Positions 1 through 8,851 of a stretch of 10,357 bases of DNA are shown piece after piece. The stretch spans positions 1-10,357 of the forward strand of contig NW_021827448.1 in the NCBI RefSeq assembly GCF_006345805.1. The letters are read 5' to 3'. A program made the position numbers and the translations under genes. Within the stretch, counting starts at the first letter, position 1, and each line of letters starts with the position of its first letter. Source of the DNA: Octopus sinensis (Eukaryota). The notes under the pieces are model-generated. The model saw only the letters and a list, made by a program, of their open reading frames with translations, had not been told where the DNA came from and ran no database searches.

Positions 1-204
1 TATAAGATACCCGGTTTTGGTTAAACTGCACCGCAAAATGTGGGAGTAGTTAGGAATCTAAATCGTAGGAGACAGACACTCCCACACCTTCACTTTTATA
101 TATAAAGATACATAAAAAAAATCAAACTAAGAATGATTTTTCAAAAGAGGGGAAATCTCTGAGAGCTGCTTATTGAAACCCAACAAAAATCGTAGTGGTC
201 ATCT

Positions 205-791
205 CGCAGCTATCCTTCAACAGTGGAAGAGGCCTTCATCTCCACAACCGAAGAAGGCACGACAGAGCCGCAGCTCCATCAAGAGCTCGCTCATCGTTTT
301 TTTTTCGACATCCACAGTATTGTGCATCGAGAATTCGTCGCCCCCCCCCCCCCGGGGCCAGACCGTAAATCGAGAGTTCTACTGCGACGTTTTGAAGCGT
401 TGGAGGGCGGATATTCGGTGAATGTGACTGGATCTGTGGAGCGCAAAGAATTGGATTCTTCACGACTACAACGCCCCCTGTAACCAAGCTTCGTGAGTTT
501 CTCGCCCCAAACAACATGGTATCGCTTCCATACCCACCCTATTCACCTGATTTAGCACCTGTAGACTTCCATCTCTTCCCCAGGATGAACATTCAGCTCA
601 AAGGTCACCGTTTTAACACCATAGCCAATCGTAGAAGGTCCTCGACTCGTTTAGGGAAATCGACTTCCAGGCCGGATTTCGAAAGTGACAGGAACGCTGG
701 GACCGGTGTATTTCGGAGGAGATGAAGTTAAAACCGAAGTTATTCTTTGATAAATATAACTAGTCCTAGAACTTTATGATACCACCTCGTA
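205..791 (+). mobile_element. Decayed mariner (Tc1/mariner) DNA transposon, 3' portion: transposase pseudogene plus right TIR
   Basis: Mariner motifs are spread over shifting frames: QWK.PSSP.PKKARQS, FFDIHSIVHREFV, GQTVNREFYCDVLKR, decayed LH(D)YNAP (from HHDNA), PYPPYSPDLAPVDFHLFP..LKGHRF. The sequence ends ACTAGTCCTAGAACTTTATGATACCACCTCG followed by TA at 790-791, a mariner-like terminus. The first catalytic Asp region and the left end are not seen; the start is approximate. Confidence 0.9.
759..789. repeat. Probable right terminal inverted repeat of the mariner element
   Basis: The reverse complement reads (TA)CGAGGTGGTATCATAAAGTTCTAGGACTAGT, typical of mariner TIRs. It lies just after the transposase C-terminus. 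The partner TIR is not in the window. Confidence 0.7.
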
Positions 792-1456: not shown

Positions 1457-1865
1457 CTCTCTTTTTTTTTTTTTTTACATGTTTCAGTCATTTTGATTGC
1501 GGCCATGCTGGAGCACCGCCTTTAATCGAGCAACTCGACCCCGGGACATATTCTTTGTAAGCCCAGTACTTATTCTATCGGTCTCTTTTGCTGAACCGCT
1601 AATGACGGGGACGTAAACACACCACCAGCATCGTTGTCAAGCATGCTAGGGGGACAAACAGATACACAACATACACGCACACCCATATATATATCATATT
1701 ATATCGACGGGCTTCTTTCAGTTTCCGTCTAAACCACATCCACTCACAAGGCTTTGGTCGGCCCGAGGCTAGAGTAGAAGACACTTGCCCAAGGTGCCAC
1801 GCAGTGGGACTGAACCCGGAACCATGTGGTTCGTAAACAAGCTACTTATACCACACAGCCACTCC
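1457..1865 (-). mobile_element. tRNA-derived SINE family A, near full length
   Basis: Colinear with the reverse complement of the copies at 5629 and 8212 (head GGAGTGGCTGTGTGG, B box GGTTCAGTCC, tail GCGGTGCTCCAGCATGGCCGC..GACTGAAAC, A-rich end). Flanked by the candidate TSD (C)TGTCAT at 1450-1456 and 1865-1871. Confidence 0.92.
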
Positions 1866-2319
1866 TGTCATGTTTACATTTAGCAGAACTTTTGACGGGG
1901 AATGTTCCATAAATATTTCTTCTTCATTTGTTTGCATGGATTCAAGAATTAGAGGCATTGTTTACGTTTCTCCTCGGGTCAGTCTTTCACACTGACAGGA
2001 TTGTATGTAGTTTTGACAAGAACATAATACAGCAAGGGGAGGTAATAACCTTGATAACATTATCGAGCCGCCATTAATCACATGTATTATGTTTTTCACA
2101 GAAAATGTGACATAATCGGCATTTTCGATAGCATCAGGGGCGTTTAGAGGATATCGCTGTCTTTTTTGTTTATTAAATAATGCGTAGCTATCTTCTGCTG
2201 CTGTTGTTGAACAGTAAAAGTAACGTGACGTGACAGTCACGAGCGCAAGACGAATTTTTTGGTATATAACATAAATCCCATGACGTAAATATCATATTGA
2301 TGGAGTAGTCTTTGATTCG

Positions 2320-2549: not shown

Positions 2550-2804
2550 AACCTAATATATATATAATATATATATATATATAATGTATATATATAATAT
2601 ATATATTTCCCTCTGTCCTCCCACCTCGGGATCTTTCTTTCTCCTATGTTTCCGACGAAGAGCTCCGCTCGAAACGTCATGCCCTCCTTCTTTCCCTTTT
2701 TTCCTGAGGCGCCTAATAATACTTTTAATTGTTCCACCCCTCCTTCGCGTTGTTGTCTTTTTGTTTTCTTGTTTGGATTACTTTATATATATATATATAT
2801 ATAA

Positions 2805-2846
<42 letters not shown>

Positions 2847-2866
2847 ATATATATATATATATATAA
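2417..2866. repeat. Interrupted (TA)n microsatellite arrays (about 2417-2443, 2489-2606, 2784-2866)
   Basis: Directly visible TA dinucleotide runs separated by short unique modules. Confidence 0.95.
2652..2678 (+). ncRNA. Variant minimal hammerhead-like motif
   Basis: CCGACGA-A-GAGC(TCC)GCTC-GAAA-CG-TC: variant core, perfect 4-bp stem II, GAAA, ACGT palindromic stem III, GUC triplet. Stem I does not pair. Confidence 0.45.
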
Positions 2867-2938
2867 TAGAAATTCGGGGTGAGTACTTGATAATTATAAG
2901 CAACCTGTGTATACCGTTTGGTGGTGTAGGTGGTGGAG

Positions 2939-3519
2939 TAAATTGATCAAATAAAATAAAAACATGATGCGAAGGATTCAGCGGTACATATGTTTTCGGT
3001 CCTTTATTAGACAGATTTATAACAATGCATAATGTATGTCTGTGGCCTTCTTCTTCACCGCGCCAACAGCTTCCACAAGACAATGTGTTATCAATCAAAA
3101 ATTCTTGGTTGGGGATGCAAATCCTCTCATTCACGTACGACATAATGCGGCAGCAGCATAGAGTTGAGGCGTCCATCTCTTTCTTCTCTCAATGTAGAAT
3201 GAGGAAAATTGGATGTTGAGGTAATTAAATAATAAATACATATATAGAGGTGAAGATTGAGGGCGAGAGTTCGGGACGAGGGAAAAAAAATGTATAAAAA
3301 GTGTAAGTATAAATAATATAAAATGTAGAGGATAAGGGTTGTAAGTAGATGTAAAGGGGGTATAAAGAAATATAAAGTAAAAATAGAAATAGAAATAAAA
3401 GTAAAAAAACCTGATAAAAAACATGATAAAAGTGTAAAAGAATGTAAAGATAAGGGATGTATAGAGGTTATGGACCAAGCATGGTGGTCAGGAGATTGAT
3501 AAAATTTAGTTGTAGAATT
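2939..3519 (-). repeat. Left arm of long inverted repeat (putative Penelope-like pseudo-LTR)
   Basis: Reverse complement of 4844-5437 with scattered substitutions and indels. The ORF track gives near-identical peptides (MVHNLYTSLIFTFFYTFIMF) on opposite strands. Confidence 0.95.
2981..3062 (-). ncRNA. Decayed hammerhead-like motif in the left arm
   Basis: The minus strand reads GCGG-TGAAGAAGAAGGCC...GGACC-GAAAA-CATATG-TA-CCGC. Stem I GCGG/CCGC is intact but the core is damaged (C3 lost, GAA duplicated, extra A). Confidence 0.5.
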
Positions 3520-3534
3520 ACATCCCGCTTTCCT

Positions 3535-3670
3535 ATATGTGCGTGTATATGTGTATGTGTGTGTGTGTGCGTATGTATGTGCACATACGTGTACGTATGT
3601 GTACATATACATATATATGTACATGTGCGTGTGTGTGTGTGTGTGTGTGGGTGTGTGTACGTGCATATAG
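3535..3670. repeat. Compound (TG/TA/CG) purine-pyrimidine microsatellite
   Basis: Alternating GTGT/ATAT/GCGT runs. Confidence 0.85.
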
Positions 3671-3944
3671 GGTTCCCTGCATTTTCCCCCTATATATCAA
3701 ATTTTTCTCCCATATATGACTTCTTTCCCTAAATATTTCTTCTCCTACACCCTATCCTCCCTATGTAGTCTCTTTAATCCCCTATATCTATAACCCTTTC
3801 ACATTTCTCACTCAGATGTTGAACGCACCACCGCCAAACTCCATTTCCCACCCTTCCAATTTTCAGTTCCCCCCGCCCGCCCCTACGTTAAACACCACCT
3901 CTAACTTTCAACCACCTTCATCTCATGTTAAACTTACAAAATTA

Positions 3945-4230
3945 ATATTTTATCTTATTTTATTTTATTTTTATTTTTACTTTTATTTTTACTTTTTCCT
4001 ACTTCCTTTATTTTTATTTTTATTTTTACTTTTATTCTACTTCCATTTATTCTCATTTTCATTTTCATCCCTTACCTTAACTCTTATAATTTTTATAATT
4101 CTTATACTTCATTTCTAACTATTACATTGTATTTCTTATTTTATACTGTATTTTTTATTTCTAATCTTTACCCTTACCCTCATTCTTACCCCTAACTTAT
4201 CGCTTTACACCTCTATATATGTTTATTTAC
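3945..4230. repeat. Pyrimidine-rich low-complexity tract (TTTTA/TTTTTA-like units)
   Basis: Nearly G-free plus strand with degenerate TTTTAT repeats. Confidence 0.8.
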
Positions 4231-4254
4231 TTACCTATGGATCCACCTTTTGAA

Positions 4255-4750
4255 TATACGAGCGTCCGCGTACGTGTGTATACGCATACATACATATGCA
4301 CGCGCATATATGTACATGCATACTTCGATATCTTATAGCTATACCCATGTGCGCGTGTGTCTCTGTGTGTGTGTATGAGTGTATATGTGCACGCACATAC
4401 GGACACACCAGCCGTGTGTTGCGTGCGCGTATTGACATGAGTACGGGATTCTTTACATACGTTCTTATACACATCCTTTAATATCTTATACCTGGACCTA
4501 GAGGCGTGGGCATATACGTGTGTGTATGTAGTGATGGCGCGCGTATATACATGTGAGCGTGTACGCGCGTAATGTCCGTGTATATATGCGGATATTCTGT
4601 TGTATGTATGTGTGTGTACGCGCGTGCGTGTGGGTGCGTGTGTGTTTATGTACGTGTTTACACGCGAGTGCGTGTGTATGCTTATAGGCTTGGAGGCGTA
4701 TATGTACGCGTGTATGTGGGTGCATATATCCATGATGATATGTATGTACT
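4255..4750. repeat. Degenerate alternating purine-pyrimidine (TG/CG/TA) tract
   Basis: Long imperfect RY alternation, e.g. GTGTGTACGCGCGTGCGTGTG. Confidence 0.8.
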
Positions 4751-4843
4751 AGAAGTCCATTTAATTCAAGGAACCAGATTAAATGCTCATCAGCTCTGAT
4801 TTACAACGCATTAAGTCCCCAGACAAACTGTTGATGTACTGAC

Positions 4844-5435
4844 AATTCTACAACTAAATTTTATCAATCTCCTGACCACCATGCTTGGTCCATAACCTCT
4901 ATACATCCCTTATCTTTACATTCTTTTACACTTTTATCATGTTTTTATCAGGTTTTTTTTTACTTTTATTTCTATTTCTATTTTTACTTTATATTTCTTT
5001 ATACCCCCTTTACATCTACTTACACCCTTTATCCTCTACATTTTTATATTATTCTATACTTACACTTTTTATACATTTTTTAATCCCTCGTCCCGAACTC
5101 TCGCCCCTCCATCTTCACCTCTATATATGTATTTATTTTATTTACATTACCTACCTCAACATCCATTTTCCTCCTCATTCTACATTGAGAGAAGAAAGAG
5201 ATGGACGCCTCAACTCTATGCTGCTGCCGCATTATGTCGTACGTGAATGAGAGGATTTGCATCCCCAACCAAGAATTTTTGATGTAACACATGTCCTTGT
5301 GGAAGCTGTTGTGCGCGCTGAAGAAGGCCACAGAGACATACATTATGCATTGTTATAAATCTGTCTAATAAAGGCCCGAAACATATGTACCTCTGAATCC
5401 TTCGCATCATGTTTTTTATTTTATTTTGATCAATT

Positions 5436-5437
<2 letters not shown>
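4844..5437 (+). repeat. Right arm of long inverted repeat (putative Penelope-like pseudo-LTR)
   Basis: Starts AATTCTACAACTAAATTTTATC (rc of the left arm's inner end) and ends TTGATCAATTTA, running directly into (TA)n. Confidence 0.95.
5313..5393 (+). ncRNA. Type I hammerhead ribozyme-like motif in the right arm
   Basis: CTGAAGA at 5318-5324; stem II GGCC 5326-5329 / GGCC 5373-5376 with internal AGACA/TGTCT; GAAA at 5378-5381; palindromic stem III A-CATATG-T; GUA triplet ending at 5389. Stem I is weak in this copy. Confidence 0.65.
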
Positions 5438-5627
<190 letters not shown>

Positions 5628-5628
5628 A

Positions 5629-6013
5629 GGCGCAGGAGTGGCTGTGTGGTAAGTAGCTTGCTAACCAACCACATGGTTCCGGGTTCAGTCCCGCTGCGTG
5701 GCATCTTGGGCAAGTGTCTTCTGCTGTAGCCCCGGGCCGACCAATGCCTTGTGAGTGGATTTGGTAGACGGAAACTGAAAGAAGCCTGTTGTATATATGT
5801 ATATATATATATATATGTGTGTGTTTGTGTGTCTGTGTTTGTCCCCCAAGCATTGCTTGACAACCGATGCTGGTGTGTTCGGCAAAAGAGACCGATAGAA
5901 TAAGTACTGGGCTTACAAAGAATAAGTCCCTGGGTCGATTTGCTCGACAAAAGGCGGTGCTCCAGCATGGCCGCAGTCAAATGACTGAAACAAGTAAAGA
6001 GTAAAAGAGTAAA
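5629..6013 (+). mobile_element. tRNA-derived SINE family A, full length with a 23-bp internal deletion
   Basis: Starts GGCGCAGGAGTGGCTGTGTGG (A box), GGTTCAGTCC (B box), central TA/TG microsatellite, tail hairpin CAGTCA-AA-TGACTG, ends in AGTAAAG-like repeats. Confidence 0.95.
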
Positions 6014-6094
6014 GTGTATATATATATATATATACACATATATATACACATATATATATATAATATGTATATGTATATGCATATATGTATATAT

Positions 6095-6180
6095 ATGTGT
6101 GTGTTTGTGTGTGTGTATTTGTGCCTCTGTGTTTGTCCCCCCACTATCGCTTGATAACCGATGTTGATATGTTTACGTCC
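6095..6180 (+). mobile_element. SINE family A middle fragment
   Basis: TGTGTTTGTCCCCCCACTATCGCTTGATAACCGATGTTGATATGTTTACGTCC matches the post-microsatellite body. Confidence 0.8.
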
Positions 6181-6182
6181 AC

Positions 6183-6440
6183 ATTCTTTGTAAGCTTAGT
6201 TCTTGTATCGGTCTCTTTTGCCGACTCGGTAAGTTCCAGGGGCATAAACACGCCAGCATTGGTTGTTAAGCGATGGCGGGGCGGGAGGGGGGTACAAACA
6301 CAGACACACAAATATATACACGTACATATATATGCGACGGGCTTCTTTCAGTTTCCGTCTACCAAATCCGAGGCTATAGTAAAAGACACTTGCACATGGG
6401 GCTACGTAGTGGGTCTGAACCCGGAATCAAGTGGTTGGGT
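6183..6440 (-). mobile_element. SINE family A, diverged, internally deleted and truncated copy
   Basis: Contains CGACGGGCTTCTTTCAGTTTCCGTCTACCAAATCC and CTGAACCCGGAA. The head is cut off at the MITE boundary. Confidence 0.85.
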
Positions 6441-6606: not shown

Positions 6607-6699
6607 TACTCTTTTACTTGTTTCAGATGCCACGCAGTGGGATTGAACCCGGAACCATGTGGTTGGTTAGCAAGGTACTTACCACACAGCCACTCCTGC
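6607..6699 (-). mobile_element. Miniature SINE A: tRNA head fused directly to the extreme 3' tail
   Basis: The tail TACTCTTTTACTTGTTTCAG is joined to the head ATGCCACGCAGTGGG..CCACACAGCCACTCCTGC. Confidence 0.8.
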
Positions 6700-6850
6700 T
6701 GTGATCAGATTTATTTGATGTTATTTGTATTTTCTGACGAAGCGGTTCTCTACAGAAACCATTGTTGGAAGATGGTTAACTTCTATAAACCTAACTTGTT
6801 TCTTTCTTTTTTTCTTTCTTTTTCATATTCATTTCATAATAAAGGTTTTG

Positions 6851-7519: not shown

Positions 7520-7583
7520 CACTACGATCGTTTCATGGCTGTTAATTTCTTTAAATTTTCGAGTTACAGTCATTCATCAGGTG
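7520..7583 (-). ncRNA. Minimal type I hammerhead ribozyme with intact catalytic core
   Basis: The minus strand reads CAC-CTGATGA-ATGACTGT...ACAGCCAT-GAAA-CGATCG-TA-GTG. Stem I is CAC/GTG, stem II pairs 7 of 8, stem III is the palindrome ACGATCGT, and the triplet is GUA. The predicted cut lies between 7523 and 7522. Confidence 0.8.
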
Positions 7584-7942: not shown

Positions 7943-8165
7943 TCTCTTATTCCTTTACTAGGTTCAGTCATTTGACTGCGGCCATGCTGGAGCGCCGCCT
8001 TTAGTCGAACATATCGACTCCAGGACTTATTCTTTGTAAGCCTAGCACTTATTCTATCGGCTCTTTTGCCGAACCGCTAAGATAGTGGGACGTAAACATA
8101 TCAACAACGGTTGTCAAGTGATAGTGGGGGGATAAACACAGAAGCACAAATACACACACACATAC
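7943..8165 (-). mobile_element. SINE family A 3' half
   Basis: TTCAGTCATTTGACTGCGGCCATGCTGGAGC..TTTTGCCGAACCGCTAAG..GGTTGTCAAG, extending up to the central microsatellite. Confidence 0.9.
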
Positions 8166-8211
8166 ACATATATACATATATACATATACATACATACATA
8201 CATACATACAT

Positions 8212-8610
8212 GGCGCAGGAGTGGCTGTGTGGTAAGTAGCTTGTTTACCAACCACATGGTTCCGGGTTCAGTCCCACTGCGTGGCATCTTGGGCAAGTGT
8301 CTTCTGCTATAGCCTCGGGCCGACCAAAGCCTTGTGAGTGGATTTGGTAGACGGAAACTGAAAGAAGCCCGTCGTATATATGTATATATATGTATGTGCG
8401 TGTATGTTTGTGTGTCTGTGTTTGTCCCCCTAGCATTGCTTGACAACCGATGGTGGTGTGTTTACGTCAACGTAACTTAGCGGTTCGGCAAAACAGACCG
8501 ATAGAATAAGTACTGGACTTACAAAGAATAAGTCCCGGGGTCGAGTTGCTCGATTAAAGGCGGTGCTCCAGCATGGCCGCAGTCAAAATGACTGAAACAA
8601 GAAAATAAAT
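8212..8610 (+). mobile_element. tRNA-derived SINE family A, full length
   Basis: GGCGCAGGAGTGGCTGTGTGG head with A and B boxes, complete body, and tail ending GACTGAAACAAGAAAATAAAT. Confidence 0.95.
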
Positions 8611-8780: not shown

Positions 8781-8851
8781 CTGAAGAGGACTGGTCCTTA
8801 GCCCCATTTTGGCATCAAAAATTGAGATTTGGTCCAGTAGAAAAACGTTTA
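8781..8851 (+). ncRNA. Decayed hammerhead-like motif
   Basis: CTGAAGA at 8781-8787; stem II ACTGG-T-CC / GG-T-CCAGT; GAAA at 8840-8843; palindrome A-AACGTT-T; UUA triplet. Stem I does not pair. Confidence 0.5.

What the first reader, a model, noticed from the sequence alone, without database searches (positions are those of the whole stretch)
2868..5437. 2.5-kb unit with ~580-bp inverted arms, each carrying an outward-facing hammerhead, inserted in (TA)n
Seen: arms 2939-3519 and 4844-5437 are inverted around a 1.3-kb low-complexity spacer with no RT or GIY-YIG ORF. TA arrays bound the unit on both sides, and a hammerhead-like motif lies near each outer end. Known: Penelope-like elements often form inverted pseudo-LTR arrangements, and their pLTRs carry hammerheads. 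Inference: a non-autonomous PLE derivative or template-switch product; if transcribed it forms a long dsRNA hairpin.
Basis: partly seen in the sequence, partly recalled or inferred. Interest (0 to 1): 0.75.

Follow-up and report, generated by a model that had tools for sequence, protein, structure and literature searches.

The report
Head-to-head Hydra-Penelope retrotransposon ends
The 2.5-kb mirror-image unit is two cut-short copies of the tail end of a protein-coding Penelope-type jumping gene, joined back to back in a TA repeat, a known layout; in this family one arm always ends about 73 bases further out than the other, which likely means both ends of the cut DNA prime copying of the same element RNA.

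Summary
The arms, the TA arrays and two outward-facing hammerhead-like motifs are present as described. The 'spacer' is not a spacer: w3520-5437 is one continuous piece of the ~2-kb 3' UTR of an autonomous Penelope-like element (PLE). w2866-3519 is an inverted, shorter second copy plus a ~73-nt tail. Full-length copies elsewhere in G000 encode an 836-aa telomerase-like RT with a C-terminal GIY-YIG nuclease and Hydra-clade motifs. The window's junction occurs in no other locus fetched, so this is a one-off insertion, not a non-autonomous family. The layout is published (PMC8557442, PMC3846280). What is added here is counts. All 39 of 39 inverted pairs have one tailed and one untailed end. The two arms share the same allele of a 65:57 dimorphic site in 34 of 34 pairs. 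The tailed arm is the longer in only 19 of 39. This disfavours simple cDNA fold-back and favours priming from both target ends at two RNA sites. Both window hammerheads fail a strict descriptor, likely through contig errors; 110 of 131 family copies pass. The scan noted the two-fixed-ends pattern before in other families. Verdict: new family of a known kind, with a testable mechanism clue.

The parts
2784..2865 (.). left (TA)n target array
   Evidence: TRF
2866..2938 (-). 72-73-nt tail, equal to the first half of the 149-nt 5' leader of full-length copies; this is the long 3' end
   Evidence: 99% to L060 positions R1-72; tail length; leader length
2883..2904 (-). small hairpin inside the tail; stem kept in a sister family of 64% protein identity; role untested
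   Evidence: 67 of 75 tails identical; L079
2939..3519 (-). left half: 5'-truncated copy of the last ~580 nt of the 3' UTR/pLTR
2981..3061 (-). type I hammerhead motif, defective as assembled (core C3 missing, extra bases)
   Evidence: coordinates read
3519..3520 (.). head-to-head junction with 0-1 nt overlap, not found in any other fetched locus
   Evidence: loose ends show both family continuations breaking here
3520..5437 (+). right half: 5'-truncated copy covering nearly the whole 3' UTR (starts 61 nt after the ORF stop) and ending at the short, untailed 3' end
   Evidence: colinear at 90-97% in chromosome-scale copies
5314..5393 (+). type I hammerhead: core CUGAAGA...GAAAC, palindromic stem III, extended stem II with AATAAA (5367-5372) in its bulge, predicted cut after 5389; stem I mismatched as assembled
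5436..5625 (.). right (TA)n target array
   Evidence: TRF

Best explanation
This is a single dead insertion made of two 5'-truncated copies of an autonomous Hydra-type Penelope-like retrotransposon joined head to head in (TA)n, likely formed when both 3' ends of the cut TA repeat primed reverse transcription on RNA of one source element at two sites 73 nt apart. Shown: the identity of the pieces, the parent RT plus GIY-YIG ORF, TA targeting, two discrete 3' ends, strictly one of each per pair, and the same haplotype on both arms. Inferred: the element's nuclease cuts both strands of (TA)n. One DNA end would prime at the outer site (...UUCUAUA) and the other at the inner site (...CAAUUUA); both sites end in UA and could pair with the target. 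Each cDNA would stop at an independent point, and the two would be joined by end joining with 0-3 nt overlap or small inserts. The hammerhead would process tandem or circular transcripts and plays no necessary part in this copy. The parts carry different confidence: identity about 0.95, double-priming mechanism about 0.55.
For: Parent ORF: intact at 836 aa in L062, L065 and L067; the best fold match is TERT (E 1.5e-8, model pLDDT 85.6); RT D263 and YRDD and GIY-YIG Y717/Y730/R740/H744/E799/N814 are >=90% conserved in 112 aligned sequences. Ends: 122 of 123 termini abut (TA)n; 65 are long (48 at +73) and 58 short. Pairs: 39 of 39 are long/short, including 12 of 12 from queries that held no tail; chance is about 1e-4 at the observed end frequencies (my arithmetic). 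Same source: 34 of 34 pairs agree at a C65/T57 site, with 17 mismatches against a permutation mean of 68 and 0 of 10,000 permutations as low. The tailed arm is longer in 19 of 39. Junctions: 26 of 47 overlap by 0-3 nt and 17 of 47 have inserts. The 20-mer after the inner site has its best match in the element in register at the outer site (score 24 against next 23). An Anolis PLE cuts and extends both strands and initiates at two sites that bracket its tail (PMC11167929).
Against: 5 of 47 junctions are near-symmetric against 1.7% expected, as fold-back would give. Arm concordance could also come from gene conversion, or from two RNAs of one dominant donor. Many insertions are single halves (37 examined), so double priming is not obligatory. 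Two cDNAs on one RNA need strand displacement, which is untested. The duplicated motif wins by only one point. The 39 pairs come from top-scoring hits, that is young copies, and 22 were found with a query holding 9 nt of tail.
Confidence: 0.6

Rival explanations
1. Same element, but the inversion arises by self-priming or fold-back (of the cDNA, or on an antisense template as proposed in PMC3846280), and the one-sided tail by nuclease resolution of the intermediate (as suggested in PMC8557442).
For: Near-symmetric junctions in 5 of 47 against 1.7% expected. Haplotype identity of the arms in 34 of 34 follows naturally. This is the published view.
Against: In cDNA fold-back the first-made arm is the longer one and must already hold any tail. 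Yet the untailed arm is the longer in 20 of 39 pairs, including the window. In 42 of 47 junctions the two truncation points are more than 30 nt apart.
Confidence: 0.25
2. Both target ends prime, but on two separate RNA molecules held by two enzymes, and the long/short rule is set by asymmetric protein geometry.
For: Arm lengths are independent. No strand displacement is needed. One donor may dominate in a cell.
Against: The two alleles are near 50:50 in the genome, yet 34 of 34 pairs agree. The strict long/short rule is simpler on one RNA.
Confidence: 0.1
3. A non-autonomous PLE derivative (a fixed 2.5-kb unit with inverted arms) that is copied as a whole.
For: The window holds no coding DNA and has hammerheads at both ends.
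Against: The junction is unique. Truncation points scatter from the last 100 nt into the ORF. The spacer is the parent's 3' UTR.
Confidence: 0.02
4. An assembly or long-read artefact (read fold-back, or a chimeric small contig).
For: The window is a whole unplaced 10.3-kb contig with an indel excess.
Against: The flanks on the two sides are different and have no close second copy. The ends differ in the family-typical long/short way. The same layout recurs in many chromosome-scale loci.
Confidence: 0.03

Closest known systems
Hydra clade of C-terminal EN+ Penelope-like elements (Craig et al. 2021, PMC8557442; passages, section 11, part 2 of 59 and search hits of the supplement seen), especially Penelope-13_HM and Hydra-1_Obim
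   Same: Single ORF with RT then GIY-YIG; DKT, CxCX5C linker, CxxC and CxH; no CCHH; sense hammerhead near the 3' end; (TA)n target. Penelope-13_HM is listed with a 5'-truncated inverted copy and a hammerhead on each strand.
   Different: Unit 4.4-4.8 kb against 2.1-2.7 kb for complete listed members; 3' UTR ~2 kb; two ~55-aa low-confidence inserts in the protein; RWA instead of RWK; tail 73 nt against the 30-40 bp given for PLEs; hammerhead with a ~40-nt loop II holding AATAAA. Protein and hammerhead differ from Hydra-1_Obim (compared by eye).
Inverted-pLTR insertions of Adineta vaga Penelope (Arkhipova et al. 2013, PMC3846280; passages seen)
   Same: Head-to-head inverted copies with a tail on one of them.
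   Different: There the pLTRs are ~200 bp with TSDs and junction palindromes, and self-priming on an antisense template is proposed. Here arms run to kilobases, most junctions are asymmetric, and TSDs are hidden in (TA)n.
PAc (Poseidon of Anolis carolinensis) in vitro (Frangieh et al. 2024, PMC11167929; parts 1-2 of 4 read)
   Same: Two RT start sites bracket the tail; AT-rich target; both strands cut and extended; AC-rich sequence at the start sites.
   Different: Penelope/Poseidon clade; start sites and hammerhead cut lie inside the ORF there but upstream of the ATG here. The parts read do not link the two sites to the two arms of an inverted insertion.
L1 twin priming (recalled, not read)
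   Same: Two target 3' ends prime on one RNA and give an inverted junction.
   Different: In L1 the second primer lands far upstream and the two cDNAs do not overlap. Here the second site is fixed 73 nt away and the arms duplicate each other.
Animal non-LTR retrozymes (bioRxiv 10.64898/2026.07.22.740005, part 1 of 5 read) and PLE hammerheads (PMC4209133, passages seen)
   Same: Type I hammerhead with palindromic stem III; cofolding of two copies forms an intermolecular stem III.
   Different: Not a short tandem non-coding unit; the parent encodes its own enzyme.

Membership tests
EN+ Penelope-like elements | single ORF with TERT-related RT | tested here: met
   836-aa ORF in L062, L065, L067; TERT is the best fold match; Pfam itself gave no RT hit
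EN+ Penelope-like elements | C-terminal GIY-YIG nuclease with catalytic Y, R, H, E, N | tested here: met
   conserved columns; Pfam GIY-YIG above cut-off in 2 of 10 homologues scanned, not in the query
EN+ Penelope-like elements | pLTR from partial tandems, inverted 5'-truncated copy, one-sided tail | tested here: met
EN+ Penelope-like elements | type I hammerhead motif in the pLTR | tested here: met
   110 of 131 family copies meet the descriptor; the two window copies do not
EN+ Penelope-like elements | hammerhead self-cleavage | not testable with these tools
   needs an in vitro assay
Hydra clade | DKG changed to DKT | tested here: met
   DKT at 126
Hydra clade | CxCX5C linker; CxxC and CxH around the catalytic E and N; no CCHH | tested here: met
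   696, 793, 823; no cysteine pair inside the GIY-YIG core (read)
Hydra clade | RWK motif present, GxKF/Y not conserved | tested here: inconclusive
   query has RWA at 39, while 86 of 111 homologues have RWK; no GxK[F/Y] seen by eye
Hydra clade | insertion into (TA)n | tested here: met
   122 of 123 termini
Hydra clade | generally short (<3 kb); descriptive rather than diagnostic | tested here: not met
   unit 4.4-4.8 kb
Hydra clade | placement in an RT tree with the published members | not tested
   the published sequences were seen only as supplement text and compared by eye
Naiad/Chlamys PLEs | N-terminal nuclease, no canonical hammerhead | tested here: not met
   nuclease is C-terminal and the hammerhead is present
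Non-autonomous fixed-structure element (MITE, foldback or retrozyme) | many copies with the same ends and internal junction | tested here: not met
   junction unique among fetched loci

The most novel reading that the evidence does not exclude
Inverted Penelope insertions are made by twin priming with duplication. One RNA carries two AC-rich start sites 73 nt apart with a hairpin between them, and each end of a double-strand cut in (TA)n is assigned to one site. Two overlapping cDNAs are copied from the same template and joined head to head. The sole AAUAAA of the 2-kb 3' UTR, placed 17 nt before the ribozyme cut, would make polyadenylation and self-cleavage competing fates of the transcript.
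Probability: 0.4. Interest if true: 0.65.

Novelty: new member of a known kind. Interest (0 to 1): 0.36.

Why it matters
The copy itself is ordinary mobile-element debris. The family is useful because it is young (copies ~1% apart), has intact ORFs, and leaves many long two-armed insertions. How PLEs form tandem/inverted structures is named as an open question in PMC8557442. The strict long/short rule, arm-haplotype concordance and unbiased arm lengths constrain that mechanism and define an experiment. Kilobase inverted arms would also be a source of long dsRNA if read through, which may matter in an animal lineage with heavy A-to-I editing (recalled); this was not shown.

Tried and rejected
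Rfam scan: only microsatellite-driven miRNA matches below threshold, no hammerhead. Pfam: no RT or GIY-YIG hit for the family protein. PDB sequence search: nothing. Unconstrained folding of wider hammerhead windows did not give the ribozyme fold, z 0.3 to 1.5; the trimmed modal family sequence did form stems I and II. Sequencing runs: no RNA holder on record was listed, and all laid runs were contigs. No listed piece bridged the junction, with 130 pieces not shown; this is no evidence either way on the junction, expression or editing. Search for an empty allele: the flanks have no close second copy in G000. Homodimer prediction of residues 1-485: no answer. Exact-match junction scoring was confounded by nearby variants and was replaced. 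One search included three wrongly paired rows (two of L042, one of L099), dropped; with them the result was 41 against a mean of 90. A pile-up of 5' ends at the ribozyme cut was not seen: 1 of 9 partial tandems (L068) starts within 3 nt of it. Rejected: DNA-transposon TIR, unique segmental inversion, Naiad, fixed non-autonomous unit. Literature searches found no paper applying twin priming to PLEs or noting AAUAAA inside PLE hammerheads. Subscription papers and bioRxiv supplements were not visible, and only parts of the PMC8557442 supplement were read.

Full report
Observation. The window is an entire unplaced contig of a 2.72-Gb genome. The host is likely an octopus: a hammerhead in locus L047 closely matches the one listed for Hydra-1_oBim, and an argonaut protein is among the top homologues. 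The inverted arms are at 2939-3519 and 4844-5437, with 565 identities, 8 mismatches and 29 gap columns. TA arrays bound the unit, and no coding DNA of the family lies in the window.

What it is. A search of G000 with the left arm gave 1,582 first-look candidates, of which 40 were scored; this is not a copy number. I fetched 91 stretches of up to 10 kb from four queries. w3520-5437 maps as one colinear block in many copies. Upstream of it lies an ORF whose stop is 60 nt before the base matching w3520. Full-length units are 4.4-4.8 kb: a 149-nt leader, a 2.5-kb ORF (intact at 836 aa in L062, L065, L067) and a ~2-kb 3' UTR. Several are preceded by a partial tandem copy, the pLTR. The window is therefore a right half covering almost the whole 3' UTR, and an inverted left half covering its last ~580 nt plus a 72-73-nt tail that equals the start of the leader.

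The protein. It has 1,372 homologues at E<=1e-10; nearly all of the best 120 are unnamed ~700-aa proteins at 30-39% identity. A model built on 112 aligned sequences (pLDDT 85.6) matches TERT best. RT aspartates and GIY-YIG catalytic residues are conserved. The Hydra diagnostics of PMC8557442 section 11 are met for DKT, CxCX5C, CxxC, CxH and absence of CCHH; RWK appears as RWA. The element is longer than described Hydra members, and no tree with them was built. It differs from Hydra-1_Obim by eye.

Hammerhead. Of 131 copies extracted, 82 are identical and 110 meet a strict type I descriptor. The modal sequence folds into stem I and an extended stem II, and two copies cofold through the palindromic stem III, as described for PLE hammerheads (PMC4209133). 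Both window copies fail the descriptor. The contig shows 14-19 indel bases per arm against copies that differ from each other by 0-1, so sequencing error is the likely cause, though this is unproven. Cleavage was not tested.

End rule. After dropping six duplicate or overlapping stretches (L065, L069, L072, L073, L075, L097) and the sister-family locus L079, 123 terminal 3' ends remained. Of these, 122 abut (TA)n, 65 are long (48 at +73, 8 at +80 to +83) and 58 are short, 12 of the short ones stopping slightly early or lacking the search motif. All 39 outward-facing pairs with both ends visible are long/short: the window, 22 from a query holding 9 nt of tail, 4 from an ORF-start query and 12 from queries without tail. 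Eight further loci have an inversion junction but no second end in view. The tailed arm is longer in 19 of 39. Of 37 single halves examined, 23 have (TA)n at their 5' end.

Source of the arms. In 34 pairs with enough overlap, both arms carry the same allele of a C65/T57 site in 34 of 34. Summed mismatches at 44 informative columns are 17, against a permutation mean of 68 and minimum of 37 (three mis-paired rows dropped). Of 49 junctions, 47 were scored: 26 overlap by 0-3 nt, 4 by 6-8 nt, and 17 have inserts of 1-235 nt. Five are near-symmetric against 1.7% expected. The window's junction overlaps by 0-1 nt and is unique among fetched loci.

Mechanism. Shown: TA targeting, two discrete ends, one of each per pair, same-source arms, independent arm lengths, de novo junctions. 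Inferred: the nuclease cuts both strands of (TA)n. Each DNA 3' end would prime RT on element RNA, one at each of two UA-ending sites that are followed by a similar AC-rich motif (weak support) and flank a small hairpin (stem kept in sister family L079). The cDNAs would stop independently and be end-joined. This agrees with PAc, which cuts and extends both strands and starts at two sites bracketing its tail (PMC11167929). Fold-back (PMC3846280) explains haplotype identity and the symmetric minority, but not the 20 pairs in which the untailed arm is longer. Gene conversion or two RNAs from one donor cannot be excluded.

Comparison and novelty. [quoted passage not shown] Penelope-13_HM is a Hydra element with this two-hammerhead layout. 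Searches found no paper applying twin priming to PLEs, within a library that lacks most subscription journals. Earlier notes of this scan report the two-fixed-ends pattern and a tail hairpin in other families. I reached the end rule before reading them; the hairpin was their lead and I checked it only partly. Verdict: a new family of a known clade and an ordinary copy, with a quantitative and testable clue to an open mechanism. Interest 0.36.

Noticed in passing
window 5367-5372; L025:5432+, L045:2398+, L051:2945+, L056 (minus), L029:378+: The only AATAAA in the 2,008-nt sense 3' UTR sits in the hammerhead's stem II bulge, 17 nt before the predicted cut and ahead of a U-rich tract. Five of six unrelated long-loop hammerheads checked in fetched loci also hold AATAAA in loop II, four at a similar offset; none of three short-loop ones does. 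The loops are AT-rich, so chance is not excluded.
   Followed up: partly
window 2607-2783: Another abundant repeat (2,270 first-look candidates) between TA arrays. It has a minimal hammerhead-like motif whose core reads CCGACGA instead of CUGANGA in all 11 other copies viewed and ends in TA; likely the end of a different PLE.
   Followed up: partly
window 7523-7580 (-), 6734-6766 (+), 8781-8851 (+): Further hammerhead-like motifs from a relaxed scan (0.23 expected per shuffled window); the one at 7580 lies between TA arrays.
   Followed up: no
L044 ~5297-5365; L045 ~967 and 2398: Other hammerhead families also occur as outward-facing pairs.
   Followed up: no
L079 (G000:C28:15404015-15414014): Sister family at ~64% protein identity with a conserved leader and tail hairpin.
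   Followed up: partly
L068 ~3406: A partial-tandem 5' end begins within 3 nt of the predicted ribozyme cut; eight other partial tandems extend past it.
   Followed up: partly
window 196-725: Fragmented ORF resembling a mariner transposase (motifs recalled).
   Followed up: no
window 1469-1867, 5589-5998, 7954-8609, 6064-6438, 6625-6699: Several copies of a dispersed SINE-like repeat in both orientations.
   Followed up: no
P0003 residues 490-543 and 639-691: Two low-confidence N/R/T-rich inserts, recalling the N-rich inserts of Adineta Penelope ORFs.
   Followed up: no
singles in L080-L111: Among single halves from tail-free queries, 12 end short and 3 long, suggesting the inner site more often succeeds alone.
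   Followed up: partly
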